60,000 bases of DNA, taken from positions 18,478,001 to 18,538,000 of the forward strand of contig OZ076409.1 of NCBI GenBank assembly GCA_964187785.1, read 5' to 3'. A model generated the notes under the pieces. The model was given only the letters and a program-made list of their open reading frames with translations, searched no databases and was not told the origin of the DNA. This document shows positions 3,361 to 51,899 of the stretch, in pieces; the stretch's first letter is position 1, and the number at the start of each line of letters is the position of its first letter. The DNA is from Amphiscolops sp. MND2022. Its lineage: Eukaryota. Position numbers and translations under genes: made by a program.

Positions 3361-4424
3361 GACAGCACAACAAACATTCAAGGCTGACAAGCCTCGAAAT
3401 TGCACATTCATAAGACTACAGTACTGTTTTGGAGTCTGGAAAGTTGTTTTTCATGCAGCCAATGTAGTCTAACCCACGGACTACCTTAAGTGACCGATAA
3501 AAAGTAACGTTTTTCCGAACTTTCCCACTTCTATCTTACTTTGTTATTTACTACAAATTCTATTTTTTTACTACGGAGCTTGAAGTTTTGAGCTGGTAAT
3601 TTAAAGCAACTGTTGAAACAGGTTTGAAAAAATTGGTCAATTCAAGCATTTTATTCTTTGGAGGAATGCTTTCAAAAATTTCGGCACTGATATAGTTTTT
3701 GGGATGTCTGAAAGTGTCATTAACGGAGGATATCGACCTTCTGAAATAATTGCACTCCATTGCAATATAATTGCTACGTTTCCAATCAGTTGTAAATAAT
3801 AGCTGGTATGAAAGTAATTGCGCTTTAATTTCAGTCGTCCAATTATTTTTTGACCACCCCTGATTAAAGGAATTGAAAGATTTTGTCCAGCTTTGCCTGT
3901 TTTCTCTTCTCCACTTCAACAGAACTCTACTGAAGCACCTTCAAAATCAGAGAAACAGCGAGTATCTCAGCACATTTCCTTATAAAAACAGTCCTTATAA
4001 ATACGGTTTAGTAAAGTCCAAGAAGCGTAGAAACAAAATATGTGTTCGAATAATATATCTCGAATATCTTCGAATAATATATATATCTTTTTCTCACACA
4101 GTATTGAACAATATGTTGATTATTAGACAGCAGCTAATAAATGTTAATTTTAAAAAAATAATAATAATATTTAAATACATTATTTCACATCTGCTTTAGT
4201 TTATTTGCTTTAGTATTTCTTGGCTTTTCATTGTATTGTGTTAGAAGCTCTACATGTTGTACGTTCATGGTCCTTATTTTTCTGCCTAGATGCAAGTTTA
4301 TATTGACAATTTCAAATATCAATTATCATCTTCCCCAAAAAAATTAATTGCTTATGATGCTTCCCTTTTTGACATTAGCCTCATGCGAAATCTTACCGCA
4401 GCGCATCTTACGGCTGCCAATTAC

Positions 4425-5156
4425 TGTAACGGCAAGCTCTGGTACAGCAACATCAACTTCGACATGTTCAGAAAATTTTGTCAAAAATTCGTTCAAATTT
4501 GACGTGGCACTCAAACATGCTCAAGACGAAGTACCTGCCAGAAAAAGCACCCCAAAAAAGCAGAAATCGCCGCTCGCGACGAACAAGCACCGGAGACGAC
4601 TGAAAAGACGTCCCCAACGCATACAGAACACGGTATTGTGTCAATCTCTAGGAGATATCCATTACTACAGTAAAGGAAACCAGTGTTCCAGATGTTCGCC
4701 TGAGTATCCCTGCGGTATCCTGTGTGGCAACTAGCGCTAGCGCTGGGAACCTGAGGTCAATCTTCATCAAATGACTCTGAACTCTTGATTTCTTGTTGTA
4801 TTTTTCGATGTGGTAAATTAATATGCTCGAGAGCTGTTGTTTAACATCTGTTTATCCAATTTGGCGATTTTATCAGATTCTCCAATATTACGGTTCAACC
4901 TTCATCGATTTTCAGCCCAATTTTTAAAGGCTAGTTGAGCAGTGGTCTTGAGTCTTGCAAGATGCCTGTTACTTTTAGCAGTTACAGACTAGGACCAGGC
5001 CAGAGAGCCTCCTACAAGACGGTTCCCCCACCTTGGGACTGGCTCCTTCGGAGGGAAAATGAGCTAGGGCCGCGGAGATCTAAGTCCCAGATTATATTCG
5101 CTGTTCTAGTTCCTCCACTCTACGTTGCGGTTCAAGCGCCAGCGCTTATCGTTACA
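4425..5156 (+). repeat. 5' LTR (732 bp)
   Basis: Starts TGTAACGGC, ends CGTTACA; matches 22536-23267 except for three transitions seen by eye. Confidence 0.97.
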
Positions 5157-5171
5157 TAGAAACTCATTTTT

Positions 5172-5189
5172 TGGCGACCACAGAGGGAT
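5172..5189 (+). promoter_or_regulatory. Primer-binding site, probably tRNA-Arg
   Basis: TGGCGACCACAGAGGGAT begins with TGG (complement of CCA) and resembles the complement of eukaryotic tRNA-Arg 3' ends (...GGTCGCCA); lies 15 nt after the LTR end. Confidence 0.7.
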
Positions 5190-7877
5190 CGTCTTGGGAA
5201 GCTTTCCCTAGCGGTTTTTAAAAGATCTGGCCCCCTGGTGTTCAGCGCCAAGCCCGTTTTCGACTCTGGACAGGAGAGAAGAGCAGAGTTTTACCTCTTT
5301 TTAGTCGTATTACGTCTTACTGGAACTGGGAGAGGCGTTGAACCAGTGAAAATGCGAAGAAAACATGTTTTCAGGTGCGAAAATGGCATTTTTGGGCATT
5401 TTAGAAGGAAATCGCTCTTTATGTGTGATGTGTTGTATACCCATCAGCGGGTACTTTTTTGCAGGTGTAGAGGACCGTAGCACGTGGCTACGGGTGTCTA
5501 ACAGTTTTTTTGAGCTATTTTCAGCCATTTTATGCCATGCAAGAGGGTAACGGATGGATGGTTGACCATACTCCAGCGAGGCGAAGGAGGGGACAAATCT
5601 TGTGTTGCCTACTTCCTATTCCCATTTCTCGTGGAGACGTCCTAGAGGCATGGTTTTTGGTGGACAGCAAGTACAACGACAGACGGTGCTAATGGTCCCA
5701 CCCGCGTATTTCTATCTGGTCTAGAAGTGGAGAAATAACGTGGTGAAGATGCACCCCCTAGGACCAGATGAGTCGCTCAGATGGAGTATGGTTGGCGAAA
5801 ATTTTGAAAATACACCTCTTTCGATGGAGAATCGATGGTGCAGGTCAGTGACGTTCTACCATAAATGTAACGGCACCCTACGAAGTGCTTTTCTGCGAAA
5901 GAGATAGCACTTTGAGAAAAAAACCTCATTTTTGCGTTTTTTTTTGGTGTTTTTCTTGGTTTCGAGCACTAGTGCTCACAGAAGCCAGGAAAGTGTGGTG
6001 GAAAGTTTTGAAAAAGCAGCTGCAAGGCTCGAGAAAGCCGGCACGAGGCACGAAAGGCGAAGTTGAAGCCTTTGATTGTCATAAAAGTGCCAACTTGATG
6101 CCGAAAAATGTGAAAAAAGCGGAAATTTGGCCAAAAAGGCACCCAAAATGTGAACGTACACGAGTGTGGAAGTGTAAAATGACAGTGTACGGCACTATCC
6201 CAAGTGTAGTTGACCCTCCGGATACTAATTGTAATTTTTGTAGCGGACTCAGGCAGCCTGGGGCTGATACAGTGCGAAAAACTTTTGATTTTTGGCATTT
6301 TCGAGCAGAGAAGGTGCATCAACCGAAAACACCCAGAGCGAAGCTTATTCGAAGAGAGCGGGCTCGAGCGCTCTCATTTTCGATTGTAGCAGCAAAAACG
6401 ACGCATTGTGGTGAAAACTGCGTGCGAAAATTCGTTTTCAGCGTCGAGAAAAACTGAAAAACCTTGAATTTTGGCCAGTTTCAGGAGTGCCAGAGTGTAT
6501 CATCAAAACCTCCAGGGCACTCAATGTTTTCGAGACCGGAGAGCCCGCGCGCTCCTATTTTCTGTATTTATAATACAAACGACGCATTGTGGTGAAAACC
6601 GCGTGCAAAAACTCTTATTCAGTGCTGAGAAAAGTGGAAAAACGCACTGAATTTGATCAATTTTCCACTAAACCGGACTGTCTCTGAGCTAGGGTCGGGT
6701 CATCGATTCCTGAACCCTAGCCAAAAAGTGGTTGCATTTTCGTAACCACCACAAAAAACAGCGTTAGTGCCGAAAATTTGGTGGGCGTATCGCTCACCAA
6801 AGTTGAGAAAAACTCTCTGACGTTTCGACTGCAGAGAAGCATAAAAGGACCAAAAAATTCCAAAACTGCTGGACTGACAGTGCCTTATACCTAACGGGCA
6901 CAGCCAATTGAGGGTTTATCCCAGTGCTACGGATAGTGGGGCGACACGTTGGTCCCATTTTGCCTGCCGTATCACTTTCTGAGATGATCCTCTTGATCAA
7001 TTTGTGAAAAAAGTCGTCAAAAACAGTGTTTTTCCGTGTACATCCTACGTAGTGGGTCGAAACCTCAAATAAGCGCTCGCGCTTCAATTCGACCATTTCG
7101 GTGGCATTGTAGGTGCCTACTGGCATAGACTACCAAGTTTGGTGCCGATCTGTGCGATACTTGTTGAGAAAATAGGAAAAACGTGGCACCCAAAAAGGCG
7201 TGCAAAAAGGCAGTTTTTTCCAAATTTTTCCGAGTAACCCGGGCACCTTAGCCGACGGGTGGGGCTATATTGCAGCCCACCATCGTATCCTGTGCTAGTT
7301 TCTACGTTGCTGCAGAGAATTTGAGCTTGCTAGCTCTTTCCAGTGGATCGCAATCTTGAGAAAGACGTGAGAAACAGTGTATTTCGGTACATAGTGGTAC
7401 CGCACGTCTGTACCTAGGTGAAACTGTGTAGAAAGGGCGCAACTCAAAACTGTGCTCATTTTCGTAAACCTACGTGTACCTAAGATCTGCTGGCCAATTT
7501 TGGGCTGGATACGGCGCTTCCCGTGCATACCCGAGCCTTTGGAGAGTTATCGTGCCAATTTTGAAAAACCCGAAAATTTCTTGAAATCCTTCCTGTGGGT
7601 GACTCGAGACCTTTTGCCCCAAACGAAGTTGATTTTCCAGCCCAGTGTGCTTGTGGAAAAACGCTGTGCAAATTTGAACGGCCTACGAGCCCTAGAACGT
7701 GTTCCGAAAAATCTAGAACATTGAATATCACCAAAATTCTTAAGTGCTCACCGGGACGACCAAGGGATCAGCTTTTGAGTGAAGACCCTGGTACGTTCGG
7801 CGACCCAATTTGAGTCTTCCGAGTAATCGTGAGCGGTAACTCGATCGCTATCGATAAACGCGTTGGCCACCGAACCG

Positions 7878-10800
7878 ATGGCGGTGTCCCATACTGGTTC
7901 ACAATCATGGGTCACGATAGAGGGTTCGTGTTTTTCAGACAACATGTCTGACGAAGTCACTATCGAACAACAGCGAAAGGAGGAATTGGCCGCTATGGTT
8001 CGTCCCTCAGAGAACCCCAGTATTTCTGCAAATTCGCGTCGAACTGAGCAGTGGGTCGACGAAACCTGCCGCGACAGAGCTAATGAAGTGGAAGAGGGCT
8101 GGCCTAATTCGAACATGACCGATGAACTGGCGGCTGAGGAAGGGTGCTCGCGCGCACCCCCGGCTGGAGAAAGGCAACTTGGCTCACAAACTGACATGGA
8201 GCAGGACCTCACTCATGTGGGAGGCATGAGTTACGCGCGACAGCGGGGACTCGGGACCACTCGAGGACCTACCCGGGTCTGTGCCTACGGAAAGCACAAG
8301 AAGGTACGACCACCTCTGCTGCAGGTAGGCGAGCCACGCCAAGAGGCATCCCGTGTCAGGAGTATGACAGGTTCATTGGCCTCATCGCAACGGTCCTCAG
8401 TATACAAGGCAGCGTTATTGGATGCCCAAGCCGGAACCCAACGGGCCCTAGCAGGTCTGGCCAGCACTCGTGCTGAGTGCAATGAGCAACACCTGGCTAT
8501 CGTAGAGAACATTAAAATGATGCAGACGACGATGCGTGAAGACCTGCAGGTCAGTGATCAATTGCGCACCGCGCAGAATGTGCAAACTGCTCGAGTGGAC
8601 ACATTGGGTCACCGGATAGGCGAGATGAATGACACGTTGATGTCTCGCGAGCTGCGCGTGGAAACGCAGATCAACGACTTAAGCAATCAGATGCACACGG
8701 TACTCAATGCCATTGAGGTCATGAGGCGTGAGAGGTCACTCCCGCGGCAGTCCAGTGCAAGTGGAGGCGTGCGGAGCGGAGGTACAGTCCGTGTCTCGGA
8801 GCCGACGTGCCCGAGCCAGGTAGTGAAGTCGGAACTGCCGAGCGCGCTAAAGCCTATCACTTCCAGGCCGGCGGTGCCTGCGCCCCGGAAAGAGGAAGGA
8901 GTAGCCGGAAATTTGGTGATGGCCATGCCTGAAGCAGAGCGCAAGCCTGCACGAGTGCAGATGAGGGGGCATCACGACTCAGCAGAATCATCGATGCCTT
9001 CTGCAACCCAGAGTACCACTCGAGATCAAGGCGTGGACCCGATGTCGACCATCTATCTTGATTCCTCGGTCGAAGTCGACCTATCTAACACCAAAGCAAC
9101 CCTAGGCTCTCAAACCGAGGGAGCGACGTTTGCAACTGCCCCTATTTTGATGTCAGGACCAGATTCTTTATACTGGACCGCGGACTTGTCAGCCGAACAT
9201 GGACTGCCCTCGGGCACTCCCTGTGCTAGCAGCACTCGTAAAAAGGACGAAATCGCTGACCTGTCGATACAAGCTACTCTTGGTAGTCATGACAGGACAC
9301 GCGAAGAGGAGGCCAAGGCCGATGAAGGAGAAGCCATATCCCCCGAGCAGCTGAGATTCACGGCCGCCATATCGAAGGCGATGTCCAAAGAGTTAGCGCC
9401 CTTACTCGCCGGCAGAGACTTGGCTCAGGCGAGGCCCAATGTATATCGCGGGTCCAAAGAAGGATCCATTGATGGGTGGATCCTTATCATGCAGAGATAC
9501 CTGAAGAGAACACAAGCCAAGGTTTCAGCCGAGGACCAGGCTTGGAGCATCATCGGTCACCTCGAAGGTGAAGCCCGCAACTACATTATCAACAAAGCGG
9601 AATCCGAACGTGACACCCCCGAAAAGGTGTTCGAATTGTTATCCAGCCGCTTTGGCGCTGGAGGAAACCGTATGCAAGTGCGACAAGCTTTCCAGAGCCG
9701 CATTCAACAAGAGAAAGAAGACTGGATGCAGTATTTAGACGCTCTAGAGGGTCTTCGAAGTCAAGGATTCCCACAAGAGGCAATCACCACCAAGCGCTAT
9801 GAAATCCTCCAGCGCTTCATGGAAGGAGTACGAGACCCAGCGCTGAGGCGGGAACTGGCCATAGTGTATGCCTCGGAAGTCTTCCTGACCGAGCCACCCA
9901 CGGTGGAATCCCTCCGCTTCACTACCCGCCAATTGCAACGCAACCGTCCAAAACCTAACCAATTCCCTCAACCCTATGACCCTAGACTAGCAATGAGGTC
10001 TCGACCTCATCCCTTCGCGCCACTACCCCCCAACAAAATGATGTTACCACAAGGAGTAATGCCTCCCCCACCTGCGAGTAATGCCCCCAATCAAGCAGCA
10101 GTGCAGCCTGCAGCACGCCTACCCGTTGGCGCGTGCTATAATTGCGGACAAGCTGGGCATTTTGCCCGGGACTGTCCTGCCCGTGATCAAGCTCGCAAAC
10201 CAGTGGCAGCTCCTGAACCAGAAGGCGTGAAAGTCACTGCCGAAGACGTAACTGATGGCGTGTTGGAGAGCTATCCAAGCATTCATCAGTGTGCGCACTG
10301 TGGAGTCTATGACCATGTGGATGTCCCTTGTGGTGAGCATTCCCAAGCTGCGAGGCCTAATGATGAATTGGCCTACAATCGATGGGCTGAAGTGGAATCC
10401 GCTGGTGTGGCCGCTCACACGGTACCCCTGGAAGATGATCGCGTATTAATGCTACACCCAGCGGAGCCCCCAGCGTTTCACCCCCCACTGATAGTTACAT
10501 GTGGGACAAAGCAGATTCAGACGTGCTTGGAGCCCACAACATTCGATCCACAAGGGAGGACGTTGATCTCGATTCATCTTATGCTGGCAGCCGAGCAAGT
10601 GCGCAGACCAACGTTAACTTTGGCAAAACTCTGGGTTGAGCTATCTGTCCTCTATAAACGGATGGAATTGCCCCGCCCAAAACAGTGGCACGTCCCCGGA
10701 GAGTCAGAGACCCTGACTACATACTCGCCAGTACCAGTCTGTGCAACGATGGACGGCGTGGACGTGAAATTCGAGGGCTGTGTGGTGGTAGATGTATTCC

Positions 10801-12989
10801 CACCCGGCTTATGCTTGGGACCTCAAGAGCTGAAATGCTATAATATCAACCACCAAGAACCCACCGGGGAAGCGCGAATAGACGAGCGTGCGTCGCTCGT
10901 TGTCTCTTTTGTGGTGCCACATGCAGCACCTATCCCACTGCGAGGCCTGGTGGACACTGGTTCTGGAGTATCAATACTGACCTTCTCCGCCTTCAACCGG
11001 GTAGCTGCGCGGACCGGAGCGGTCCTGAAACCCTATCAAATTGATTTGTACGCTGCCAATGGGAAGACAATAAAGACTTTCGGACTGGCTGAGCCGATAC
11101 GCTTCCAGTTGGGAGGGTATGAACTCGAAACCAATTTTGTCGTGGTAGATGACACAATGGGCGTGGAGGACTTTCTGTTGGGTCGAAACTTCCTTCGTTC
11201 CTACCAAGTCCTGGTAGATCTGACCTCCATGAAGATAGTGGTGCGAGCACCAGTGAAGCCCGTCTGGCATCATGCACACACCCAGGTAGGTGATGCTTCA
11301 CTAACTACCCCCATTGCCCTGGACAGCGACTTAGTCCTACAGCCTTTCGAGCGTACAATGGCAAAAGCCAAACTTATCACCAACGCGCTTGAACCATTAA
11401 TCTTTCAGACCGTGGCGCTTAACGCCTCGTTGTCTGATCCCTCATTGCAAAATACCATCTTTTTAGAGGACAGCGTGGCCACTGTCAGTGAGACAGGAAC
11501 ACTGTATGTGAGCCTGGTAAACCTCACCAGCAACCAGCAGCGTGTACGATGTGGTGCCCACCTAGGCACGGTAGTGCCTGTGTCTCTAGTATACCAGGCG
11601 GTGCCCCAAAAGCTGGATGCTACAGCGGAAACTGACCACAAAACTGAAGCCGACAACAGTCGAGCAAATTTTGTTTATAAAGTGTACAGTGAAATGAATC
11701 TATCTACTGCTTCTGAGTTAACCTCTTCATCTGAATTTGAGTTTTTGTCTTCTACGGATCCAAGTGAAGCGGGGCTTTCGGAGCGCGAGATTCGCAAGCG
11801 CGCCGATCCCGACCTATTGGCCCCGATCCCTGGGCCCGATTCTCAATTGCAAGAAGTCAAGAAACTCTGGGGCGCTAGCGCCTGCGAGTCCTTAGACAAC
11901 ATTCTTAACGAGTTTGATGACCTGTTCATGAAACGCAAAGCGGTTATTGGCCGCTGTACCATTGCTAAACACACCATAGAGGTAGAGCCTGAGGCTGTAC
12001 CGCACCGTGAAGGTGCTCGAAGAATGTCCCCCGAAAAGGCTGAACGAGCCAACCAGGAGGTTCGGAGCTTATTAGCCTTAGGGATGATACAACCTTCACT
12101 GTCCCCATGGGCAAGCGGTATCGTAATGGTAAAAAAGAAAAGCGGGGAGTTGCGCTTTTGCTGTGACTTCCGACCGCTGAATGAGGTAACCATTAAGGAT
12201 GCCTATCCTTTGCCCCGTATCGATGAAAGCCTGGCACGACTGGGAAATGCAAAGATCTACACCAGCATAGACCTTGCCTGGGCTTTCTGGAAAATTCCCT
12301 TGCGAAAGGCGGACCGCCACAAAACAGTCTTTGCCTGTGAGTTGGGACTCTTTGAATGGCGAAGAATGCCATTTGGCTTGTGCAATGCATCAGCCACTTT
12401 CCAGCGAGCAATAGCGCGAGCGCTGCAAAAAATAGTCATTCGCAAAGGCAGTATGGTCATGGCATACATCGATGACATAGTTATCGCAACTGAGACTGTG
12501 GAAGATCTCATGGCGCGGTTGCGCGAGGTTTTTGAATGCCTCCGCGAAGCTGGCTTCAAGATGCGCGTAGCCAAATGCGACTTCATGAAACCAGAAATCA
12601 AATATCTGGGACGCGTGGTCTCAGCAGAAGGTGTCAAACCGGACCCGAAAGCTGTTGCCAAACTGCGCGATTGGGACATCCCCCGCAACAAAACTGAAAT
12701 GCAAAGCTTCCTGGGATTCGCTAATTATTATCGAGAATTCATCCCGTGGCATGCCAAGCTGGTGGCCCCCCTCCACGCCGTTACGGGACTGAATGCCACA
12801 TTCGCATGGGGTCCTGACCAACAAAAAGCCTTCAACGAAGGAGAGTTCTCGCGCAGCCTAATTCCGAAGGAGAGTTCGTGCTGGACACCGATGCCAGCGC
12901 TGTTGCCATTTCCGGTATCCTACACCAATGGCAAGGAGCTCCCGGAGAACGACGCCTACGACCAATCATATACGGCAGCAAGAAACTGA
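7878..12989 (+). CDS. gag-pol: Gag-protease-reverse transcriptase part of the polyprotein (frameshifted at about 12840)
   Basis: Coiled coil; capsid-like region (HLEGEARNY...FQSRIQQEKE); two CX2CX4HX4C knuckles (10134-10175, 10290-10331); protease LVDTGS (D at 10953); RT motifs LPRID, SIDLAWAF, MPFGLCNA and YIDD (12465). First ATG at 7878; the frame is open from 7863. Confidence 0.95.
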   Translation: MAVSHTGSQSWVTIEGSCFSDNMSDEVTIEQQRKEELAAMVRPSENPSISANSRRTEQWVDETCRDRANEVEEGWPNSNMTDELAAEEGCSRAPPAGERQLGSQTDMEQDLTHVGGMSYARQRGLGTTRGPTRVCAYGKHKKVRPPLLQVGEPRQEASRVRSMTGSLASSQRSSVYKAALLDAQAGTQRALAGLASTRAECNEQHLAIVENIKMMQTTMREDLQVSDQLRTAQNVQTARVDTLGHRIGEMNDTLMSRELRVETQINDLSNQMHTVLNAIEVMRRERSLPRQSSASGGVRSGGTVRVSEPTCPSQVVKSELPSALKPITSRPAVPAPRKEEGVAGNLVMAMPEAERKPARVQMRGHHDSAESSMPSATQSTTRDQGVDPMSTIYLDSSVEVDLSNTKATLGSQTEGATFATAPILMSGPDSLYWTADLSAEHGLPSGTPCASSTRKKDEIADLSIQATLGSHDRTREEEAKADEGEAISPEQLRFTAAISKAMSKELAPLLAGRDLAQARPNVYRGSKEGSIDGWILIMQRYLKRTQAKVSAEDQAWSIIGHLEGEARNYIINKAESERDTPEKVFELLSSRFGAGGNRMQVRQAFQSRIQQEKEDWMQYLDALEGLRSQGFPQEAITTKRYEILQRFMEGVRDPALRRELAIVYASEVFLTEPPTVESLRFTTRQLQRNRPKPNQFPQPYDPRLAMRSRPHPFAPLPPNKMMLPQGVMPPPPASNAPNQAAVQPAARLPVGACYNCGQAGHFARDCPARDQARKPVAAPEPEGVKVTAEDVTDGVLESYPSIHQCAHCGVYDHVDVPCGEHSQAARPNDELAYNRWAEVESAGVAAHTVPLEDDRVLMLHPAEPPAFHPPLIVTCGTKQIQTCLEPTTFDPQGRTLISIHLMLAAEQVRRPTLTLAKLWVELSVLYKRMELPRPKQWHVPGESETLTTYSPVPVCATMDGVDVKFEGCVVVDVFPPGLCLGPQELKCYNINHQEPTGEARIDERASLVVSFVVPHAAPIPLRGLVDTGSGVSILTFSAFNRVAARTGAVLKPYQIDLYAANGKTIKTFGLAEPIRFQLGGYELETNFVVVDDTMGVEDFLLGRNFLRSYQVLVDLTSMKIVVRAPVKPVWHHAHTQVGDASLTTPIALDSDLVLQPFERTMAKAKLITNALEPLIFQTVALNASLSDPSLQNTIFLEDSVATVSETGTLYVSLVNLTSNQQRVRCGAHLGTVVPVSLVYQAVPQKLDATAETDHKTEADNSRANFVYKVYSEMNLSTASELTSSSEFEFLSSTDPSEAGLSEREIRKRADPDLLAPIPGPDSQLQEVKKLWGASACESLDNILNEFDDLFMKRKAVIGRCTIAKHTIEVEPEAVPHREGARRMSPEKAERANQEVRSLLALGMIQPSLSPWASGIVMVKKKSGELRFCCDFRPLNEVTIKDAYPLPRIDESLARLGNAKIYTSIDLAWAFWKIPLRKADRHKTVFACELGLFEWRRMPFGLCNASATFQRAIARALQKIVIRKGSMVMAYIDDIVIATETVEDLMARLREVFECLREAGFKMRVAKCDFMKPEIKYLGRVVSAEGVKPDPKAVAKLRDWDIPRNKTEMQSFLGFANYYREFIPWHAKLVAPLHAVTGLNATFAWGPDQQKAFNEGEFSRSLIPKESSCWTPMPALLPFPVSYTNGKELPENDAYDQSYTAARN

Positions 12990-15900
12990 CCACCACCCAA
13001 GCCAAATATGGGGCACCCAAGCTGGAGATGTTTGCTGCCTACTACTTTATCCTCAAGTACCACAGCTACCTTTGTCCCCGCAAGTTCACCCTGAGAGTCG
13101 ACAACCAAGCCCTATTCTGGTTGAAAACCTACTCCACGGACCAAGCATTGCTTGGACGTTGGATTATGACACTGGACAGGTATCACTTTCGCGTGGAACA
13201 TAGACCACGAACGCAGCACCGCAATGCCGATGGCTTGAGCAAACGAACCAATGAATATCGATGCCGAGAACAGCAGCTTGCGCAGCTGCCAGCTAGTGGA
13301 GAGCGTTGGAACTTCCTCTCTGCCGAGGAATTCGATAACCTCCCCATAGCCCCATGGTTCGACCTGCAAGGTCGAATCATTCCAAATCACCCTGACCTAC
13401 CACCGCATCTGCAGAACTTGGAGCCTAAGGCTCCTGACCAGGCACTCCGTGTGCTTCGCCGTGTGCAACGTGCGAACAAACGAAAACGACAGGCGGAGGC
13501 GTTAGCCGCGCCTTTACCGCCTCAGCCTCCACCCGTGTTGCAAAAGCACGGAGACTTCTACCCAGACTATCCTGAAGACTGGATAGATGTCACCACTGAG
13601 GCCAGCGAGGATTACCTACTACCAACACATGCAGTAAATGTCCCCTCGCGCACCATCTATTCTGTGACGGAAACGAGTAACGCTATGCTACAGAATTCTC
13701 CTGGTGGCGTGCGCGAGTCGATCATGGCTCTCAAGGATATCGACACCGAGCTCCATGAACACACACATACCGTGCATGATATCAAGGACTTGGTTTTAGC
13801 CCAAAACCGCGATCTCCACGTGCTTGCACTGAAAAAGCTCGTGCAGTGTGAATCCCTAGATAGCGACGTGTTTCCCGAGAACGTGCGTGAGTTCGCACGT
13901 AATTACTTCCGCCAGAAAAGGGATCTCTTGTTCATAAACAAGAATCAGGTCCTTTGCGTGCAGTACTCCCCCACCCAACGCCCACTGCACGAACGTCCGT
14001 GCATGATCATAATGCCTCAATTGTACCAGCACGAGATTCTGTTCCGTGCACACGACGCAATGGGACACCAAGGCATCTCAAAGGTGGTAGCTCGAATTCA
14101 AGAGCGCCACACTTGGCCCGGCATAAGGCGCAGTGTCGGTCGGTACATCGGCCAATGCCTCACCTGCCAACAAGTACGTGACAAGCCTGGCGACGTACGA
14201 TTCCAACTGAAAAACATTCAGAGTGGCTACTTCAACGAGTTGGTCCAATATGACCACTTAAAAATTTGCCCCTCTGATGACAACAACACCGGCATTTTGG
14301 TCATCATTGACCATTTCTCTAAATTTGCAGAGGCAGTCCCTTGTAGTCATCATGACTATGACGCAGTGACTACCTCACGATTGCTGCTGCAGAAATGGTT
14401 TGCCCGCCACGGCACCCCCACTCGCATGCAATCCGACAATGCCCCCAACCTTACTGCTGAAGTCTCTAATGAGTTTCTAAAGGCAGCTCACGTCACTAAA
14501 GTGACCTCCACTGCCGGACATCCACGAACTCAAGGCTTGGTGGAACGACGAAACCGTACCCTCTTAACCTTGTTGCGAGTCTTTTGCTCACGTCGCATGC
14601 GCGACTGGGACCAGTGCTTAGATGAAGTGATCGGTGCCTATAATTCCACCAGGCACGCCACTACAGGCTTCTCGCCCTACATGTTAACAAGGGGTGTTGA
14701 GAAAGCAATTCCCCTCACCTTTTTATACCCTGAATTTGCAGCCAAGTCCTTCGATACGCATGAAGCATACGTGGATCATGTGTTGGCTCGCCAACAAGAA
14801 ATTCACGACTTGGTTCGGCGCAACACGCACCAAGCCCAATTGCGCCAAAAACTGAAATATGATCGTGCTATCCGCACACGAGCTTACCAGCCGGGAGAGC
14901 TCGTCTGGGTTTTTTGCTGCTACGTGCCGCAAAAAGGCTCTCCAAAATTGTTGCGCGCCTGGCGTGGCCCGCACAAAATAGTGCAAGTTTTTCAAGAAGG
15001 ACGAGTCTATGTATTGGACACAGGCCAAAAGGTTCATTTTGAGCGCCTGAAACCTCATAATAGTGGGCCTCTTGAGCTCGCCACCGCGCAAGCGGACAGC
15101 GGCGAAATCGTGGTACTCATGGACCCTGTTCCTGAACGTTCTATTGAAGCAGTTGATGATGACAAGTCCCAGCCTTCATATAAAACTGAACAACTACTTT
15201 CAGAAGCATCTGACGTATCCTTGCCTTCGCGCAAGCAACATTGGATGGATACCCGTCTGCGCACAAAGTTACGTGCTGGAGGTTCCCGCATGCACTACCA
15301 GCAATTTGACTACTCAACTTCGGGCACTGACGACGAGTTGTCCGAAGTCATGCTACCGGTACTTCCTGATCCCGCTGATGCCGATCGCAGGGAGCCCGAA
15401 CCCCAACTCCCTTCAGACCAGTCAATATCACCTACCCATCACCTGCCTCAACTATTCTCCGACCATGAGCGCGCGCGCTCTCCGTCACCACGAATATCCT
15501 CTCCCGAAAGACAGCCCTCTTTACTGGGCACATCGGCCCCACTACTGACAAATCCATCACTGACAAGCTTCCTCGACAACTATCCCATTTGGCCGGCCGC
15601 CCCTTCCCTTCCTCTAAAATCTGCCACTGAGGACGACGACGCTCAGTCCAATGTCCCTACTCTTCCCACAACATTGCCCGGAGCGGGGACCGCTCCTTCT
15701 TTTAAAAGGGGGAGGGGGAGACCACCCAAAACGCGAAAAAGGCTGGTCAGAGCGAAGGCAAGAACGAGGAAGAAAGAAACTACAACAACACTGCCGTCGG
15801 AAACAGCAATACCGACCGAAGCTTCCGAGGTCCCCCGATATCAACTGAGAAGCAGACGGCAGCCACGCTATAAGTGCGGGACCTGTGGGCTGCGAGACTG

Positions 15901-16879
15901 TGTTTGCTTGCTAGCCGTCAATGAGAACCGGAGGGTTCCCACTGGAGCCCGGGGAATCCCTCCAGAGCGGGGAGAAAATCTAGTACATCGCCTTACGGTA
16001 AGAGCTGAAAAGACTTATTCCTCCCTGGAACGACACGGAGACCATCCCGTGGACACTATCCTGGAGAAGTTATCATTACCTGGAGTAGCGAAGGCCCCAT
16101 GTCCTCGCTTCAAGGAGTGGACTAGCGATGGAAAAGGGTTAGAGTTCACCCTCGCAACGGTGATGCCCCCAGTACCAAGCAACATTGCTTTTGGCCCCTT
16201 CAACTTCGAGCGGGAGCCTGTGCAAATGGTCCGATGCATCACCGCTGATCTTCTCTGTGACAAATACGGAATTCACGTGGACCCGGGCGGAGTATACAGC
16301 CCAGCGCCGCACTGGTGGTTGCTGGTCACTGCTCCACGAGTGGAGACAATAGTGGAACCGTTGCACCTGCTGTCCTGTTTGGAAGGTCTGAGGACCCTCA
16401 CTACCGCGGATCTGATACTTTGCTTTCACATCATAGACTGGTATCGTGGCAAAGTAAAATTTGCGTGGTGGTTGGAGCTGATCATCACTTGTTTCCCCAA
16501 TTATCCTCGCATTAAATTGCTGGATGAGTTGACTCATACCTTCGAGATTCCGCTTCCTCCAAAAGCCGTTTTGAGCACCCTAGACACATGGGTTAGGGCG
16601 ACCAGTGATAACCGAGCGATGCCTCGCTCGGTATGGCAAGACCTGGCTGCAATCCAGGGGCGTACGCCCCGCGTATGCTTGCCTGCCGACAATGGGCCGG
16701 GGAGAGAGATTATCTACCCGCGAATCCTGTATCCAGCCCCAACAGAACACCTCTCATATGATGTGACTGATTTTCTTCAAGTAGAAGGTGACATAGTGTT
16801 GGCGTGTCCCGCTGACCTAGAGACAAACTCAGCTGCTACGAGAATGCGGCAAGGAGAATGTGTTCTCCTTACGTCCTAA
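12848..16879 (+). CDS. pol: RNase H - integrase - extended C-terminal tail of Pol (continues the upstream ORF after a frameshift)
   Basis: LAQPNSEGEFVLDTDAS, KLEM, LRVDNQAL and NADGLS (RNase H); H-x4-H...CLTC zinc finger; QYD...SDN...VER catalytic triad; WRGPH (GPY/F); AT-hook KRGRGRPPK at 15704-15730. Confidence 0.95.
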   Translation, partial: LAQPNSEGEFVLDTDASAVAISGILHQWQGAPGERRLRPIIYGSKKLTTTQAKYGAPKLEMFAAYYFILKYHSYLCPRKFTLRVDNQALFWLKTYSTDQALLGRWIMTLDRYHFRVEHRPRTQHRNADGLSKRTNEYRCREQQLAQLPASGERWNFLSAEEFDNLPIAPWFDLQGRIIPNHPDLPPHLQNLEPKAPDQALRVLRRVQRANKRKRQAEALAAPLPPQPPPVLQKHGDFYPDYPEDWIDVTTEASEDYLLPTHAVNVPSRTIYSVTETSNAMLQNSPGGVRESIMALKDIDTELHEHTHTVHDIKDLVLAQNRDLHVLALKKLVQCESLDSDVFPENVREFARNYFRQKRDLLFINKNQVLCVQYSPTQRPLHERPCMIIMPQLYQHEILFRAHDAMGHQGISKVVARIQERHTWPGIRRSVGRYIGQCLTCQQVRDKPGDVRFQLKNIQSGYFNELVQYDHLKICPSDDNNTGILVIIDHFSKFAEAVPCSHHDYDAVTTSRLLLQKWFARHGTPTRMQSDNAPNLTAEVSNEFLKAAHVTKVTSTAGHPRTQGLVERRNRTLLTLLRVFCSRRMRDWDQCLDEVIGAYNSTRHATTGFSPYMLTRGVEKAIPLTFLYPEFAAKSFDTHEAYVDHVLARQQEIHDLVRRNTHQAQLRQKLKYDRAIRTRAYQPGELVWVFCCYVPQKGSPKLLRAWRGPHKIVQVFQEGRVYVLDTGQKVHFERLKPHNSGPLELATAQADSGEIVVLMDPVPERSIEAVDDDKSQPSYKTEQLLSEASDVSLPSRKQHWMDTRLRTKLRAGGSRMHYQQFDYSTSGTDDELSEVMLPVLPDPADADRREPEPQLPSDQSISPTHHLPQLFSDHERARSPSPRISSPERQPSLLGTSAPLLTNPSLTSFLDNYPIWPAAPSLPLKSATEDDDAQSNVPTLPTTLPGAGTAPSFKRGRGRPPKTRKRLVRAKARTRKKETTTTLPSETAIPTEASEVPRYQLRSRRQPRYKCGTCGLRDCVCLLAVNENRRVPTGARGIPPERGENLVHRLTVRAEKTYSSLERHGDHPVDTILEKLSLPGVAKAPCPRFKEWTSDGKGLEFTLATVMPPVPSNIAFGPFNFEREPVQMVRCITADLLCDKYGIHVDPGGVYSPAPHWWLLVTAPRVETIVEPLHLLSCLEGLRTLTTADLILCFHIIDWYRGKVKFAWWLELIITCFPNYPRIKLLDELTHTFEIPLPPKAVLSTLDTWVRATSDNRAMPRSVWQDLAAIQGRTPRVCLPADNGPGREIIYPRILYPAPTEHLSYDVTDFLQVEGDIVLACPADLETNSAATRMRQGECVLLTS

Positions 16880-17195
16880 GGTGGGGGAGATTCTCACCAT
16901 TCCTCCCGATGTCAACCCAAACCCCAATCAGAGTATTCACTTGCTAATAATCAGAGCAAACCAGCGTGCTCCGCTGCTCGCAGACGACTACCTACGTTGT
17001 ATGACGCACTTGATACAGCGTTTGATGGAGAAGGGATCCACGAGGGTCCACCTACCTATACTGGATCCAGAGCGACCCGCCCTCTCACTAGTAAACTTAT
17101 ATCATACCCTAACGAATTTGCTGGAGGGTACTGGTATTCACGTGGTGCTACATAACCGCGTGTACGTGTCCATTCTGAACATAGGGCTAGAGTAG
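16836..17195 (+). CDS. Frameshifted C-terminal end of Pol (second half of the second macrodomain-like unit)
   Basis: The alternative frame reads LRECGKENVFSLRPKVGEIL...HLPILD...GTGIHVVLH and joins TNSAA of the upstream frame to complete a TARG1-like pattern; stop TAG at 17193-17195. Confidence 0.7.
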   Translation, partial: LRECGKENVFSLRPKVGEILTIPPDVNPNPNQSIHLLIIRANQRAPLLADDYLRCMTHLIQRLMEKGSTRVHLPILDPERPALSLVNLYHTLTNLLEGTGIHVVLHNRVYVSILNIGLE

Positions 17196-17472
17196 CCCAC
17201 CCAAAACATTTTTGTTGCCCCCTTATTCAATTTGCCCACCCGATAATCGTCATGCCTGGGAAGAAGTCTTAAACTATCCCATGAAATATATATATTGTAA
17301 CGTAGCGTTTGATAACTTCTATCTTTGTGTTCTAATTAGTTAGTTGAACTACAATTTAAACTTGTTGCGGTTCCCCTATGGAACCATCTTTGCTGCTGAG
17401 TGATGAGCCTTAAGCTCTCCCTATAATGCGCTTGGCAAGCCTAACGGTAATCCTTTTTAGACCTATGATACT

Positions 17473-20400
17473 ATGGCTTATTACCCCAACAACACGGTAC
17501 CTATTGCCACGACGGGACCTCACGCCAATAGGACCCAAGAATTGCCTGCGCGAGCGCAGGGGACTAACCAAGTCCAATACGTTGAAGAGAGATTGAGGAA
17601 CGGCCTCTCACCGTTAGCGGTAGCGGGCGTGGCCGCCCTACTTACCCAACTAGACTCAATGCAGACGCTGCCTGGTGTATCCGTGTCTCTTGTGACGGAA
17701 GTAGCCGGTTACCGTCGCACCCTAACCTGCCAAAACAATGCGTGGGATGGCCACGATCTGACGCACCAGTTCCTAGATGAACGGTCCACCACAATGCTCG
17801 GACCCAGCCAAGGTACGAGATTCGAGCAAGAAGCCTCACTGTGTATGGTGCCTGCCAGCGTAGCAACAATGCCTCCTCCTCCGATGGTCGCATTGCCCCC
17901 ACCGGCGCCAAATTCAGTACCAATGACGCCAACTTATTCCGGTTCGCCTGCCTTTGGGACCTCATATCGAGCGCCGCATATGGTATTACAAACCACTATT
18001 AATGCACCAGTCTCTGATCGGGAGCCCTCGGGGTCCCGGTTGCCACCCATACCCAATCCAGAGCTAATGGGAAGGAGTACCAGCGAACAGGCCGTAATTG
18101 TGGCTTTGCAAGCAGTGGCGAATTATCCCAACTCAACCGATTTTGTCCGTGCTGTGGAGCAGAGAATCCCTGGATTAGCCACGTATCTGCAAGCTGCTGC
18201 TCAGCCCGCGGGCTGTGACCCTCCTGCCCCCTTAGTTGAAACAGCCTCTATGGATATGGAAATTGTCGCTGGACCGAGTAACAGCGTAAGCGCTGCCTCT
18301 GGCATACGAGAAGAAGCGGGAAGAAAGCGGCTGACTGAGGAGACCGCCTCAGTTACCCCAGCTGGCTCGGTGACCGAGAGCCCGACTAGTCGTCCCCCTC
18401 CTGACAAACGCGCTGTTGTACCTCGACCCCAGCTGAAAAGTGTAGTCATCCCTAGGCCTCTATATCGAGTGGGTCATCTAGGCCGAAGCGCTCCTCAAAT
18501 GTCTTTGGCAGACGCGATCGAACAATATGGAGATCCGGATGCAGGCTCGGAAGTGAGCTCTGTGCCCTCGGGCACCAATCCAACAGCCATGTCCCTGGAG
18601 ATACCTGAGACGGTGGAAGAAGCCCATCCTCCAGCCTTCCTCCCTCCATCTGACGACGTATCCGGCTCAGTAGTCACCAGTGATAGCAAACGCATTTGGA
18701 TGGCGGCCGAGCATCTCTATCCCAGTCAATGTGCTATCAAGAAAAGGACTCCTCCAACTGAAACGGAGCAAAAGGAGATCAACCGGACCACGATACCGGC
18801 GCAAGTCACACGCTCGCTCCGCCCCCGTGACGCAGACATGTCGGAGCAGGCTTGGGAACAGCGTGCTCGAGAGCAGCTGCCTATGACAACCAACGACTAC
18901 ATGGCACCCTTGCAACACAATATCACTGAGCAGTTTCCCGCACGGTATGTGTTGCGAGAGGGTGAGACGTGGGAGGCGAATGCCCGTTACGCCCGCAACC
19001 TGAGATCCTTGAAACCCTTATTGAAAGCAGCTCTGCAGCGTGCGCGCTACTGCATCGCAGTTGAGTCCACTTGCCGAAGTGACCTTCCTATTGATAATTT
19101 AATGCCTGATGTGCTGGTGCTAACTATGCCCCTGTCTCGCTTCGCCGAGGTCGCTGAGATGGTCGGAGCCATATACGATCCAAACTAAAGAGGATCACAA
19201 AAGGAACCACACCCACAGCGAGTGATCTTCGCCAATCTCCTGGATCACATGGCTTGCGAAGGATTGCTGCATGACCTGGCCGCGATAATGTCCAATGTCC
19301 GACGACTGGAAGACATTGCTGCCCTGGTGAACGAGGTGGTTGGTGCAATGGAACGTGCCGCAGGGATCCTTCGGGGTCGTCTGGGAGCGCTCGCGCTCTT
19401 TGTATCCCCACCGGGATTCATGTATTGGCCACGCAGTCTGCAGCAGTTCGTCTACATTCTGCTGGAGGTGTGCAAGGCGTGCAGAGTGGAATTCGCCATC
19501 TGTGCACCGAACTTGCGCGTGGATCGAGAGGACCTGCGCCCGGATACCATATCATATCCTGCCTTCTTTGCCGTTGTATCTAGAGCGCTGGTGGCTATAG
19601 AACGCTCGGGAAACGCCCAGCTCACCATTGACGATGCCATCCGCTATGACTATGGAATGCGGATGGGCAGACTGGCCTTTGACCTTGACGGCAACCGCAC
19701 CGCCCGAGAATCCAATGTAACTGAGCGAGAGGCTGTTCGCCGGTACAATTGGCTAGTGCGAAAGGATAAAGAAATCCCAGTGCGCGCAGAATTAGCCGAT
19801 CTGACGAAGCAAATTGGTGCATGGCCTGCGGCGCGCACCGTCGAAAGAACGATTCCTCAGATCCGCTTCGCCTCGGGAATCGAGCCCGTGAAGCTGCCTG
19901 TAGGGCTGCGATGTATCATAGCAATAGAAGCAACAAATCTGAAAGCAGAAGTCGACGCCGCAGCTACAACTTATGCTCATTGGTACCAGACTAGGTTTAC
20001 CACTAGAGCCCTGGCAGAAGTAGCTCGTTAGCTCGATTGTCCATTGGAAGCCTTCTGTACCAGTCTCGGTCTAGGATGGAACCTAGAGGTGCTAACTTCT
20101 GAGTTCTCGCTGACCTCTACGCAAACGGACAAATTGTTAGAAACAATTGGGGAGGCAACCGTCGGAGAAATACTAGCGCTCGCGCTAGCGATGGGCCCAA
20201 CCAAGTTCGTAGCCGGACCACTGGCTTTGTCAGTCGACATGGTAATTGCCTGCGACCTAACCATGTTCTACAGCTACTTGGTCCTGGCACAAGGACAACT
20301 ACGCAGTCTGACCCGTTGGGGACACTTGATGACTTCCAAAGACCAGCAAGACTATTCCGCACAACTGGAGCGCATGCGTGCGTCAATCCAGCACTGGCTA

Positions 20401-21780
20401 TACTCCACCCTGGTGTTCGCCTCCGGCCTATTCGTGGGCGTAGACCAATCCCAACCACTCCATAATCCCGACCAGCATATTTCCCGGGAAAAGGCAGGAT
20501 TCCCCATGCCGCAGCAGATTGCAGACCTCACCCTGGCAGAAGTAGAAGACTTTGTGGCGGCAATGGCTCCTGTTTTGGCCCCTATCTTTGGCGCAGTGGG
20601 CGTGTGCCGGTACCCAACAAAACCATTGGCAACGGCCGTCCAAGTGCACATGGTCTCTTTCAATACCTACCTGCGAGGCCGTCCTTCACTGGCGTACCCA
20701 AGGGTGATACATGCAGTGCTGAGTGGTGAGGTGCCGCATGGGTACACGACCATAAAATCCGAAAGAGAGTTGGAGGAGAACTTGATGGGCTTGCTGCGCG
20801 CGCGCACCAGGAAAGCATGTCCTCTACCCCGGGAGCATGGACCTGTGAACTGGTATTCCGCACCTCTCAGTTTGGAAGGGGTTCCCTTTAGATTCCCCTG
20901 GAGTCAAGAGTTCGTGAGAAAGGTGATTCGCGCCAGCACTAGTGCTGGTCCACCCGTGGATCCTCTATACTGCTTCAAATGCATCGCCTTCCCAAATCGT
21001 TACTGGAAGGAGCCGTTAGGTTGGCCCAGGGCAAAACCCGTTGGACGCGCCCCAGAAGTGTTCAACCGCCAAATCCAACACTTGGAGTCAGCCCAGATCC
21101 CAGGATGGATTGAAGGCGCTGCTCAGATTAGGCAGAGAAATCTCCAATCCCGCGTCATTCCATTCCCCAGGAAGTCGGCATGGAAGCCTACGGGAAAGAT
21201 GACCATGTCTGGAGATATGTCCATCGTCCAGCATGATGAGATAAATTCCGTGTTGGGCTCAACAGAACGAGCGCGATGGGAAGAATACTGTCTAGAGTTG
21301 GAGATTGCAAGCTTCCCTAAATGGAAGAGAGCTTGCGAGCTCTGGAGCCAATCTGGATGGATCTCACGCCGTGTAGCACTAGCGGTCGAGAGTAGAGCAG
21401 AGATGGCGAGACAACAGGCGTTCGCGCCTACCATGCTCGCAGCCACGATGGCGATGTCCTTGGATCGGCCCATCTCTCAACCGATCACCATTAATCTTCC
21501 AACCCATGACTTGGAGCCAGACCCAGTTGGCCCGTCTTCGTCGCGAACGAGCCCTGAGTCCTCACAGCAGCAATCCGGAGAGCACACTGCCGAATTGACT
21601 CCCAATGCAGCACTAGTGCAGCCTATTGCCGAGTTGTCGCTCCCCGAAAGTCCGTCGGACTCTGAAACAGTTACAACCGGAGTCTCTCCCCGACGTCGAG
21701 CGTCAGTGTCGACCGACAACCCAGAACAGAACTCAGATGATGCCACTAAAGAGCGGACCCGACGCAGTTCAGCTCAATAA
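17473..21780 (+). pseudogene. ORF3 of the retrotransposon (~1,435 codons, env position, two premature stops); SGNH-hydrolase-like central domain
   Basis: ORFs 17473-19188, 19222-20031 and 20044-21780 share one frame and are separated only by single stops (TAA 19186, TAG 20029). Composition is similar to pol. Pro/Ser-rich N- and C-termini; no signal peptide seen. Confidence 0.85.
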
Positions 21781-22526
21781 ACCCAGCCGTTAATGGGAGC
21801 GTTCGCGCTCCCTATACCCTCCTAAACTGCCAACAAACAGTGCCTTAAAACTTCTCATCCAGAACGGTGCCAGAATACAAAGTGCAATTTTTGTTCTTAG
21901 TTATGGTTGTATGGTTAGTGTACCATTAGTGTTGCACTGGGTGTACGGCCAATAGAGTACGCCTGCCCCAGTGGCTTGAGTGACCAAGCAAAAAAAAAAG
22001 AAAACTATTGTTCAAAAAACTATCATTTTTGTTGTGCACCGTTCGCGGTGTTTTTGAGTTGTCACAATCAAAAGAAGTCTTACCCCTCTTGATTGCGTTT
22101 CTATCTAGTCTAGTGTCCTTCATCAATCTGGTTGTTTACCGTAGGAGCCCCCCAAGCTCTAAAATGTTTTTAATCGCCTGAATGAGATGAAGACTTGTAA
22201 TCTCAAATGGTAAGGAAAAGAAATCTTAACTGACTTCGCTCGCAAAAAAGGTTTTTACACAAGTTGACTGCCCAAACGAGTTTTAAACCGGCTGAAAACT
22301 GTAGCTCTCGAGCTGGTGCTAAAACCTAGTTCATGTTTTGTACGAATAGCTAGGCAGTAAGTTCTTTTTTGTGTGAAAAAAACTGCAAAGTCGACCAAAA
22401 TTGTTGCCGAAAAACAAGGACTCGTCCTTGTTCTCCGACGTGTGGATGATGATTCCCAGCAGTCACTGTGATGCAGTTCCCAGACGATCCAGACGCCGCT
22501 TGCCAGGGACGACAAGCCAGTAGCCT

Positions 22527-22535
22527 GGGGAGTGA
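22527..22535 (+). promoter_or_regulatory. Polypurine tract
   Basis: GGGGAGTGA immediately 5' of the 3' LTR. Confidence 0.7.
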
Positions 22536-23267
22536 TGTAACGGCAAGCTCTGGTACAGCAACATCAACTTCGACATGTTCAGAAAATTTTGTCAAAAATT
22601 CGTTCAAATTTGACGTGGCACTCAAACATGCTCAAGACGAAGTACTTGCCAGAAAAAGCACCCCAAAAAAGCAGAAATCGCCGCTCACGACGAACAAGCA
22701 CCGGAGACGACTGAAAAGACGTCCCCAACGCATACAGAACACGGTATTGTGTCAATCTCTAGGAGATATCCATTACTACAGTAAAGGAAACCAGTGTTCC
22801 AGATGTTCGCCTGAGTATCCCTGCGGTATCCTGTGTGGCAACTAGCGCTAGCGCTGGGAACCTGAGGTCAATCTTCATCAAATGACTCTGAACTCTTGAT
22901 TTCTTGTTGTATTTTTCGATGTGGTAAATTAATATGCTCGAGAGCTGTTGTTTAACATCTGTTTATCCAATTTGGCGATTTTATCAGATTCTCCAATATT
23001 ACGGTTCAACCTTCATCGATTTTCAGCCCAATTTTTAAAGGCTAGTTGAGCAGTGGTCTTGAGTCTTGCAAGATGCCTGTTACTTTTAGCAGTTACAGAC
23101 TAGGACCAGGCCAGAGAGCCTCCTACAAGACGGTTCCCCCACCTTGGGACTGGCTCCTTCGGAGGGAAAATGAGCTAGGGCCGCGGAGATCTAGGTCCCA
23201 GATTATATTCGCTGTTCTAGTTCCTCCACTCTACGTTGCGGTTCAAGCGCCAGCGCTTATCGTTACA
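22536..23267 (+). repeat. 3' LTR (732 bp)
   Basis: Direct repeat of 4425-5156 with TG...CA ends. Confidence 0.97.
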
Positions 23268-51200: not shown

Positions 51201-51899
51201 CAATATAAAAACAACGCCAAGAATAAGGTAAATTTCCAGTTCCAGGGTGACATGGGTAACAAGTTCTAAACTGGGTATTAAGGTCTAAAACTATCAAAAC
51301 TAGCTAAAACCAGTGAAAATACATCAGAACAGGCACGAATATGGCAAACTACCTAGCTAAAAGCTGGGGCACAGGGACTCCAAGCTCCAAACATTGATAA
51401 TTAAGCTACAGGACTCATTTTGCTGGTTTCCGCTACTTAAGGTAGCATAATGTTAAATTTAATGAAAACCAAGGTCAGCACCTGAAAAAGAGTTTTTTAA
51501 AGAGTTTTTCTAAGCCCTCAAGCTTTTTCCATCTCTGCGTTCTCGCTCGGTCTTGCTCGGTCCTCGTTTTGCATTGGAAATGGCGAAAACAGCGAAAAGA
51601 GCAATCACATGCTCAGTGCCACGTCAAACATCGAATTAGAACTTTTGACAAAATTTCTGAACATGTCAAAATTGCAAAATTGCCGTACCAGAGGTTCCCG
51701 TTACAATTAAGATCTACACGCCTTATAAGCTCTTCGTTTTTCATATCCTCGACTAAGTCTTGTGCTAAGTCAGCATCGACGCATTCTTTGCTCAAAAAAT
51801 CTTGAAGAAAATCCAGTTATTTACGATATATGCAACTCCATTCATGTGTCAAAGTGTGCTGCTACGGGAATTGGATACAAGGATTTGTCCCATCGTTGT

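What the first reader, a model, noticed from the sequence alone, without database searches (positions are those of the whole stretch)
4425..23267. Young 18.8-kb Gypsy element with an unusually modular architecture
About two to three times the usual Gypsy length. It combines a 2.7-kb leader, a ~3,100-aa single-frame Gag-Pol, two zinc knuckles, extra protease-like and dUTPase-like segments, an AT-hook, macrodomain-like repeats and a 4.3-kb ORF3. The LTRs differ at only three positions seen in 732 bp, so the family was active recently and intact copies probably exist. Together this may define an undescribed lineage.
Basis: partly seen in the sequence, partly recalled or inferred. Interest (0 to 1): 0.75.

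Follow-up and report, generated by a model that had tools for sequence, protein, structure and literature searches.

The report
Giant Gypsy retrotransposon with esterase-fold ORF3
A recently inserted but already broken copy of a very large, high-copy jumping gene carries a big extra gene built on an apparently disabled esterase fold, and it seems to duplicate only three bases of its target, which suggests an undescribed branch of Gypsy retrotransposons.

Summary
The element is real: 18,843 bp, with 732-bp TG..CA LTRs that differ at 3 positions. This copy is defective. Gag-Pol has two frameshifts and ORF3 has two stops, but single-frame Gag-Pol (about 3,100 aa) and ORF3 (1,426-1,521 aa) exist among hundreds of database relatives.

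Reverse transcriptase places it in a well-supported clade (100/99) of giant Gypsy elements from marine-looking assemblies. Most full-length members end Pol in a TARG1-type macrodomain.

(1) ORF3 is not env. It holds an SGNH esterase fold (Z 11.7) whose catalytic His is lost here but kept in a distant clade member.
(2) The target duplication is 3 bp, here and at a related solo LTR in the window. In the papers read, 3 bp was known only from Troyka, which this element is not.

The extra protease-like segment, the dUTPase-like segment and the second macrodomain could not be confirmed. GyDB, Repbase and Dfam could not be searched, so 'undescribed' is provisional. Verdict: new variant of a known kind.

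The parts
4422..4424 (+). left 3-bp target-site duplication
   Evidence: identical to 23268-23270; 4-, 5- and 6-bp matches fail
4425..5156 (+). 5' LTR, 732 bp, TG..CA
5172..5189 (+). primer-binding site, TGG-initiated, set 15 nt inside the LTR end; tRNA-Arg assignment is recalled and untested
   Evidence: sequence
5157..7877 (+). 2.7-kb leader, GC 0.46, one degenerate 101-nt repeat pair, no Rfam match
7878..12839 (+). Gag-Pol piece 1: PNMA-like capsid (9456-9863, weak), knuckles (about 10131-10178 and 10290-10331), unverified protease-like segment (about 10450-10880), protease (10935-11198), unverified dUTPase-like segment (about 11310-11620), RT (12129-12611)
12824..16861 (+). Gag-Pol piece 2, after a frameshift: RNase H (12866-13183), integrase zinc domain (14015-14179) and core (14234-14524), AT-hook (about 15704-15730), possible second macro-like segment (about 16110-16540, unverified)
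16833..17195 (+). Gag-Pol piece 3, after a second frameshift: rest of a TARG1/OARD1-type macrodomain with a degenerate active site
17441..17460 (+). candidate branch point and splice acceptor 12 nt before the ORF3 start
   Evidence: the pattern is not above chance over the window (5 seen, 4.25 expected), so only its position is suggestive
17473..21780 (+). ORF3, 1,435 codons, stops at 19186 and 20029; SGNH-fold domain about 19040-19590; helical domain about 19890-20390
22527..22535 (+). short polypurine tract
   Evidence: sequence
22536..23267 (+). 3' LTR
23268..23270 (+). right 3-bp target-site duplication
50965..51705 (-). 741-bp TG..CA LTR of a related family, probably solo, also flanked by an exact 3-bp duplication

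Best explanation
This is a young, now defective copy of a high-copy family that belongs to a distinct clade of giant Gypsy/Metaviridae retrotransposons. Shown: the domain order, intact single-frame relatives, the clade, the SGNH fold in ORF3 and the TARG1-type macrodomain. Inferred from Gypsy biology: a full-length RNA gives a Gag-Pol of about 3,100 aa, is primed by a tRNA, reverse-transcribed and integrated. Inferred from two insertions: the integrase cuts with a 3-base stagger. Inferred, weaker: ORF3 is made from a spliced message and, having lost SGNH catalysis in this subfamily, acts as a non-catalytic lipid-, membrane- or RNA-binding scaffold that routes the particle inside or between cells without an envelope (I give this role about 0.35-0.4 on its own). 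The macrodomain here looks like a relic or binding module descended from an ADP-ribose eraser that appears catalytically intact in the distant relative L002.
For: LTRs and order. Best solved relative is Ty3 Gag-Pol, E 8e-158. Intact relatives. Clade: 19 of 101 RT rows at 0.991; 14 of 52 chosen rows at 100/99. SGNH fold: model pLDDT 75.7, top match Z 11.7, rmsd 3.4 over 162 residues, and the 50 rows listed are dominated by GDSL/SGNH hydrolases. In the alignment the block I Ser is kept, while the block V His of L002 is Arg or Cys in 9 of 9 family rows (read by eye). Macrodomain: window piece against L002 E 4e-8; profile against TARG1 E 2e-20. No env pattern. 3-bp duplications at two insertions, chance about 0.02 each. 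Precedent for lipid binding by a retroelement SGNH domain: PMC3905857 abstract.
Against: The fold was modelled on a relative's fragment (P0260), not on the window copy, and Foldseek gave no match at E 0.001 or better (best 2.6e-3). No sequence library recognises ORF3. Homology between this ORF3 family and the ORF3s of L002/L003 is weak by profile (E 0.012; E 0.21), so the SGNH ORF3s could be independent captures. Two sites are few for a duplication length, and the sequence after the second LTR partly resembles the element's own LTR-to-PBS spacer. The bootstrap had not converged (0.955), and the tree held no named GyDB references. Clade members P0154 and P0159 show no C-terminal macrodomain.
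Confidence: 0.62

Rival explanations
1. ORF3 is a nuclear regulator or RNA-export factor in the manner of Cer1 CERV, using the pseudo-SGNH domain and a helix-turn-helix-like segment to bind the element's RNA or LTR.
For: Spliced accessory export factors exist in Gypsy elements (PMC10309623 abstract). The Oskar OSK domain is among the fold matches (Z 8.3; its RNA binding is recalled). The 2.7-kb leader could hold a response element. A helical block is predicted with fair confidence, and the helix-turn-helix look is by eye.
Against: No sequence similarity to any known regulator. The OSK match ranks 45th, below catalytic SGNH enzymes.
Confidence: 0.25
2. The family or lineage is already curated in Repbase, Dfam or GyDB with these accessory ORFs, and only the paper library lacks it.
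For: The family is very abundant, and repeat libraries of LTR-rich invertebrate genomes exist. Each module has a precedent somewhere.
Against: Ten paper searches found no description of this combination. None of the named RTs in parts 10-11 of 29 of one published set looked like the clade by eye. Kojima 2025 treats 3-bp duplications as peculiar to Troyka.
Confidence: 0.2
3. The 3-bp matches are chance, or decayed 4-5-bp duplications, and the integrase is ordinary.
For: Only two sites. Several lengths were inspected. About 13 of 15 nt after the second LTR resemble the internal spacer (by eye), which would make it a 5' LTR with no right-hand duplication. All three frames on its right flank are open for 27-46 codons, so frame continuity there proves little.
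Against: Both matches are exact at 3 and fail at 4-7; joint chance is about 4e-4. The main insertion is too young for much decay (K2P 0.004). No tRNA-like PBS follows the second LTR. An unrelated Gypsy, L082, shows a 4-bp duplication on the same inspection.
Confidence: 0.15
4. ORF3 is a divergent envelope or fusion protein, and the element is an infectious retrovirus-like agent.
For: It sits in the env position with a candidate splice acceptor. There are 1-2 mild hydrophobic peaks per protein, and hydrophobic N-terminal extensions in 2 of 5 proteins scanned.
Against: No signal-like N-terminus in 3 of 5 proteins, and the other two extend upstream of the aligned start. No internal furin site and no C-terminal anchor. 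The one resolved domain is an SGNH fold.
Confidence: 0.06

Closest known systems
Vesta/Juno LTR retrotransposons of bdelloid rotifers (PMC5408684, passages)
   Same: Gypsy-like; ORF3 after pol encoding a GDSL/SGNH esterase; dUTPase between PR and RT
   Different: Their SGNH catalytic residues are reported intact, and no macrodomain, giant size or 3-bp duplication is reported in the passages read. Here ORF3 is about 1,435 aa with a degenerate site. Relationship by RT was not tested.
Troyka / Kuafuorterviruses (PMC12440569, PMC11673190)
   Same: 3-bp target duplication; single Gag-Pol; aquatic animals
   Different: Troyka has CG..CG ends, 100-400-bp LTRs, an internal part up to 7.7 kb, a CX2CX8-10HX4C knuckle, a non-YxDD RT and no GPY/F motif. 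None of these holds here.
Burro/GYPSM1 giant Gypsy of planarians (PMC6431247, passages)
   Same: Giant element, one huge multidomain polyprotein, several knuckles, dUTPase-like segment between PR and RT
   Different: Burro exceeds 30 kb and carries MATH, BIR, BCL2, ankyrin and an in-frame env, none of which Pfam found here.
ZfL2-1 ORF1p esterase of non-LTR elements (PMC3905857, abstract)
   Same: Retroelement-borne SGNH domain, shown there to bind phospholipids; functional model for ORF3
   Different: Non-LTR element, gag-like position, catalytically active
TARG1/OARD1 (C6orf130) macrodomain
   Same: Best solved match to the C-terminal Pol domain of the clade
   Different: Fused after integrase; the Lys and Asp recalled as catalytic are kept in L002 but replaced in the window subfamily

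Membership tests
Gypsy/Metaviridae | Direct LTRs with TG..CA ends, PBS and polypurine tract | tested here: met
   the PBS is offset by 15 nt and the tract is short
Gypsy/Metaviridae | PR-RT-RH-IN order, one RNase H, canonical YxDD RT | tested here: met
Gypsy/Metaviridae | RT/RH closest to Ty3-type enzymes | tested here: met
   Ty3 E 8e-158, ahead of caulimovirus 9e-76 and foamy 5e-46
Gypsy/Metaviridae | GPY/F-type motif after the integrase core | tested here: met
   pattern found in 14 of 14 relatives scanned, with His at the aromatic position in the close subfamilies; present in the window translation
Gypsy/Metaviridae | 4-6-bp target duplication (usual, not defining by phylogeny) | tested here: not met
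   3 bp at both insertions
Named GyDB/Repbase clade | Monophyly with named reference elements | not testable with these tools
   no reference set could be loaded; only a look by eye at parts 10-11 of 29 of a published RT set
Troyka | 3-bp target duplication | tested here: met
Troyka | CG..CG termini, LTR 100-400 bp, internal part up to 7.7 kb | tested here: not met
   TG..CA, 732 bp, 17.4 kb
Troyka | CX2CX8-10HX4C knuckle, non-YxDD RT, no GPY/F motif | tested here: not met
   against
SGNH/GDSL hydrolases (ORF3 domain) | SGNH fold | tested here: met
   Z 11.7, rmsd 3.4, 162 aligned, on a model of relative P0260; Foldseek weaker
SGNH/GDSL hydrolases (ORF3 domain) | Catalytic Ser, Gly, Asn, His | tested here: not met
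   Ser kept, block V His replaced in 9 of 9 family rows, block III altered (by eye); L002 keeps the blocks
Envelope glycoproteins (ORF3) | Signal peptide, internal furin site, C-terminal membrane anchor | tested here: not met
   hydropathy and pattern scan of 5 full-length proteins
TARG1-type macrodomain | Profile homology | tested here: met
   three of the six profile rows are near-identical L002-type sequences
dUTPase-like domain | Homology to dUTPases | tested here: inconclusive
   no hit by single sequence or Pfam; no fold model made
Duplicated retropepsin | Homology of the pre-protease segment to retropepsins | tested here: inconclusive
   BLAST E 9.3 against the element's own protease; no PDB hit; no fold model made

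The most novel reading that the evidence does not exclude
An old, uncatalogued lineage of giant (about 19 to over 21 kb) Metaviridae in marine eukaryotes. It evolved a 3-base integration stagger independently of Troyka, carries an ADP-ribose eraser on its integrase as counter-defence, and uses a huge SGNH-based ORF3 in place of env. In this host the enzymes have decayed into binding scaffolds while the family amplified to hundreds or thousands of copies.
Probability: 0.4. Interest if true: 0.8.

Novelty: new variant of a known kind. Interest (0 to 1): 0.62.

Why it matters
A TG..CA Gypsy with 3-bp duplications would break the current rule that 3 bp marks Troyka. It would give a natural pair for studying how integrases set their cut spacing, and it would be missed by LTR finders that require 4-6 bp (default recalled). 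Intact-looking and degenerate versions of the SGNH and macrodomain modules within one clade make the open question of what non-env ORF3s and retroelement esterases do directly testable. The family also seems to be a large, unannotated part of its host genome.

Tried and rejected
Troyka membership was rejected on termini, sizes and motifs.

No whole genome is held. No sequencing run was listed, so expression, empty alleles and copy number were not examined.

No match for the LTR start in metagenome contigs. No confirmed relatives in viral contigs. An ORF3 alignment was too divergent to scan with.

ORF3 had no credible Pfam, PDB-sequence or Atlas match. The 866-aa model was poor (pLDDT 44.7) and gave only Z 5-6.5. 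The ORF3 profile found nothing in the 103 loci. A search with L002 ORF3 found 3 close relatives and no bridge.

The second macro segment, the pre-protease segment and the dUTPase-like segment gave no significant match. The Atlas hit to a Macro cluster (0.84) is a lead only. A profile-against-profile test of these three segments was not run, so they stay open.

No Rfam match and no tRNA gene. The 201-codon frame in the leader has no Pfam match.

The host was not identified. Flank GC of 0.37 fits published LTR-rich acoel genomes, but that is a guess.

Earlier scan notes returned nothing that bears on this element. The supplements of PMC12440569 were not readable and might hold comparable elements.
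Full report
Anatomy. The two LTRs lie at 4425-5156 and 22536-23267, are 732 bp with TG..CA ends, and differ by 3 transitions, a K2P distance of 0.0041. A TGG-initiated primer site starts 15 nt inside the 5' LTR end, and a short purine tract precedes the 3' LTR. The element is GC-rich (0.53-0.55 in coding parts) against flanks of 0.37. [quoted passage not shown] A second CX2CX4HX4C knuckle and an AT-hook pattern are visible in the translation. A profile of nine clade polyproteins matches Ty3 best among solved structures (E 8e-158).

This copy is defective. Intact relatives align to it in three blocks, with frame changes near 12,830 and 16,850, and ORF3 has stops at 19,186 and 20,029. At the LTR distance, about 28 substitutions and about 1 nonsense change are expected in 13.6 kb of coding sequence, so the damage fits decay since insertion. 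No rate is known, so no date is given.

The family is large and holds intact genes. ORF3 found 25 relatives among 8,000 candidates at 42-96% identity. Five clusters have 173-657 members. Of 95 fetched proteins, 17 are at least 1,400 aa, and the nearest is 97.8% identical. Among proteins over 2,368 aa, the RH-IN region found 77 hits among 5,761 candidates: 3 at 87-89% and 54 at 57-59%. Of 85 of these and their cluster members, 51 are at least 2,900 aa (length only, and P0097 is rearranged). No intact Gag-Pol above 90% identity was listed, which may reflect how representatives are chosen. Shared contig lengths suggest that several subfamilies sit in one assembly. A profile search of 1.84 billion representatives gave 652 hits; 7 of the 150 listed are under 40% identical to the core set. 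One member of their clusters is labelled as from a bacterial MAG, probably contamination. The host was not identified.

Lineage. In an RT tree of 101 rows from fetched proteins and loci, the window copy falls in a group of 19 rows at 0.991. With 14 of these and 38 others that I chose, the group has 100/99 support, though the bootstrap had not settled. The group includes L002 and L003, which have long polyproteins and a downstream ORF of 1,900 and 1,808 codons; their LTRs are not in the loci. The tree had no named references. A look by eye at parts 10-11 of 29 of the RT set in the supplement of PMC11673190 showed no similar named element, and motif searches there were negative but could be defeated by gaps.

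Macrodomain. The last Pol piece matches the C-terminal domain of L002 (E 4e-8). Pfam Macro scores that domain at E 4e-4, just under the cut-off, and the near-identical P0200 above it. A six-row profile matches human TARG1 at E 2e-20. The Lys and Asp that I recall as catalytic in TARG1 are kept in L002 and replaced here. P0154 and P0159 lack the domain, and P0159 ends in a helicase instead. A second macro repeat, the extra protease-like segment and the dUTPase-like segment look plausible by eye but gave no significant match.

ORF3. No sequence library names it, and it lacks the marks of an envelope protein. A model of the conserved central domain, from a 42-row alignment led by the natural fragment P0260, reached pLDDT 75.7. 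It matches GDSL/SGNH hydrolases, top Z 11.7, rmsd 3.4 over 162 residues, with Oskar OSK at Z 8.3; Foldseek agrees only weakly. By eye the nucleophile Ser is kept, while the His position is Arg or Cys in 9 of 9 family rows. L002 keeps all four blocks and L003 appears to, and both share a short downstream motif with this family. Profile support for common descent is weak, however (E 0.012; E 0.21). A candidate splice acceptor lies 12 nt before the start codon, though the pattern is not above chance over the window.

Target duplication. The flanks match over exactly 3 bases and not over 4-7, with a chance of about 0.02. A 741-bp TG..CA LTR of a related family at 51705-50965 also has an exact 3-base match and no longer one. 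Against this, about 13 of 15 nt after that LTR resemble the element's spacer, but no tRNA-like primer site follows. Its flanks look by eye like one decayed transposase frame, which Pfam did not confirm. An unrelated Gypsy, L082, shows 4 bp. Kojima 2025 (PMC12440569, parts 1-4 of 5 read) gives 4-6 bp for LTR elements and 3 bp for Troyka only. Troyka's termini, sizes, knuckle and RT motif (also PMC11673190, parts 1-2 of 3) are not met here.

Mechanism. The replication cycle is inferred from Gypsy biology, and a 3-base integrase stagger from two sites. For ORF3 I favour a non-catalytic lipid-, membrane- or RNA-binding scaffold made from a spliced message, by analogy with the ZfL2-1 esterase (PMC3905857, abstract). 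A CERV-like export role is the main rival (PMC10309623, abstract). Nothing here shows expression or binding.

Comparison and verdict. Each module has a precedent: GDSL ORF3 and dUTPase in rotifer elements (PMC5408684, passages), and giant multidomain Gypsy in planarians (PMC6431247, passages). Passages of PMC6338049, PMC9040795, PMC9911081, PMC6451197 and PMC4695847 described no such element. Ten searches found no report of this combination, but Repbase, GyDB, Dfam and most subscription papers were out of reach, as were the supplements of PMC12440569. I rate it a new variant of a known kind, interest 0.62.

Noticed in passing
window 50965-51705 (-): LTR of a related family with a 3-bp duplication, inserted in what looks by eye like a decayed DDE/hAT-type transposase frame (no Pfam hit).
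   Followed up: partly
P0159 (3,697 aa): Basal member of the same RT clade whose Pol ends in an Upf1-like SF1 helicase (AAA_11/AAA_12) instead of a macrodomain.
   Followed up: no
L002:9403-15102 and L003:15644-21067: ORF3s of 1,900 and 1,808 codons with intact-looking SGNH blocks; L002 also has a weak IBR-like zinc segment (E 8e-4). L003 has a separate 1,667-codon gag and at least 21.5 kb of internal sequence.
   Followed up: partly
window 38166-43300: About three tandem copies of a 1,708-bp unit at 98-99% identity.
   Followed up: no
window 53561-54778: 171-bp satellite, 7.1 copies.
   Followed up: no
window 47604-47789 and 52064-52243: Perfect palindromes with 93-nt and 83-nt arms; real foldback elements or assembly artefacts.
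   Followed up: no
window 34680-35225 (-) and 56719-57357 (-): Two related frames (75-80% DNA identity over parts) with no Pfam match, probably a dispersed repeat.
   Followed up: partly
window 24601-26540 (-): Fragments that look by eye like a decayed LINE (endonuclease and RT).
   Followed up: no
L081-L103: Eukaryotic-type Gypsy sequences inside bacterial MAGs of the genome collection, probably host contamination.
   Followed up: no
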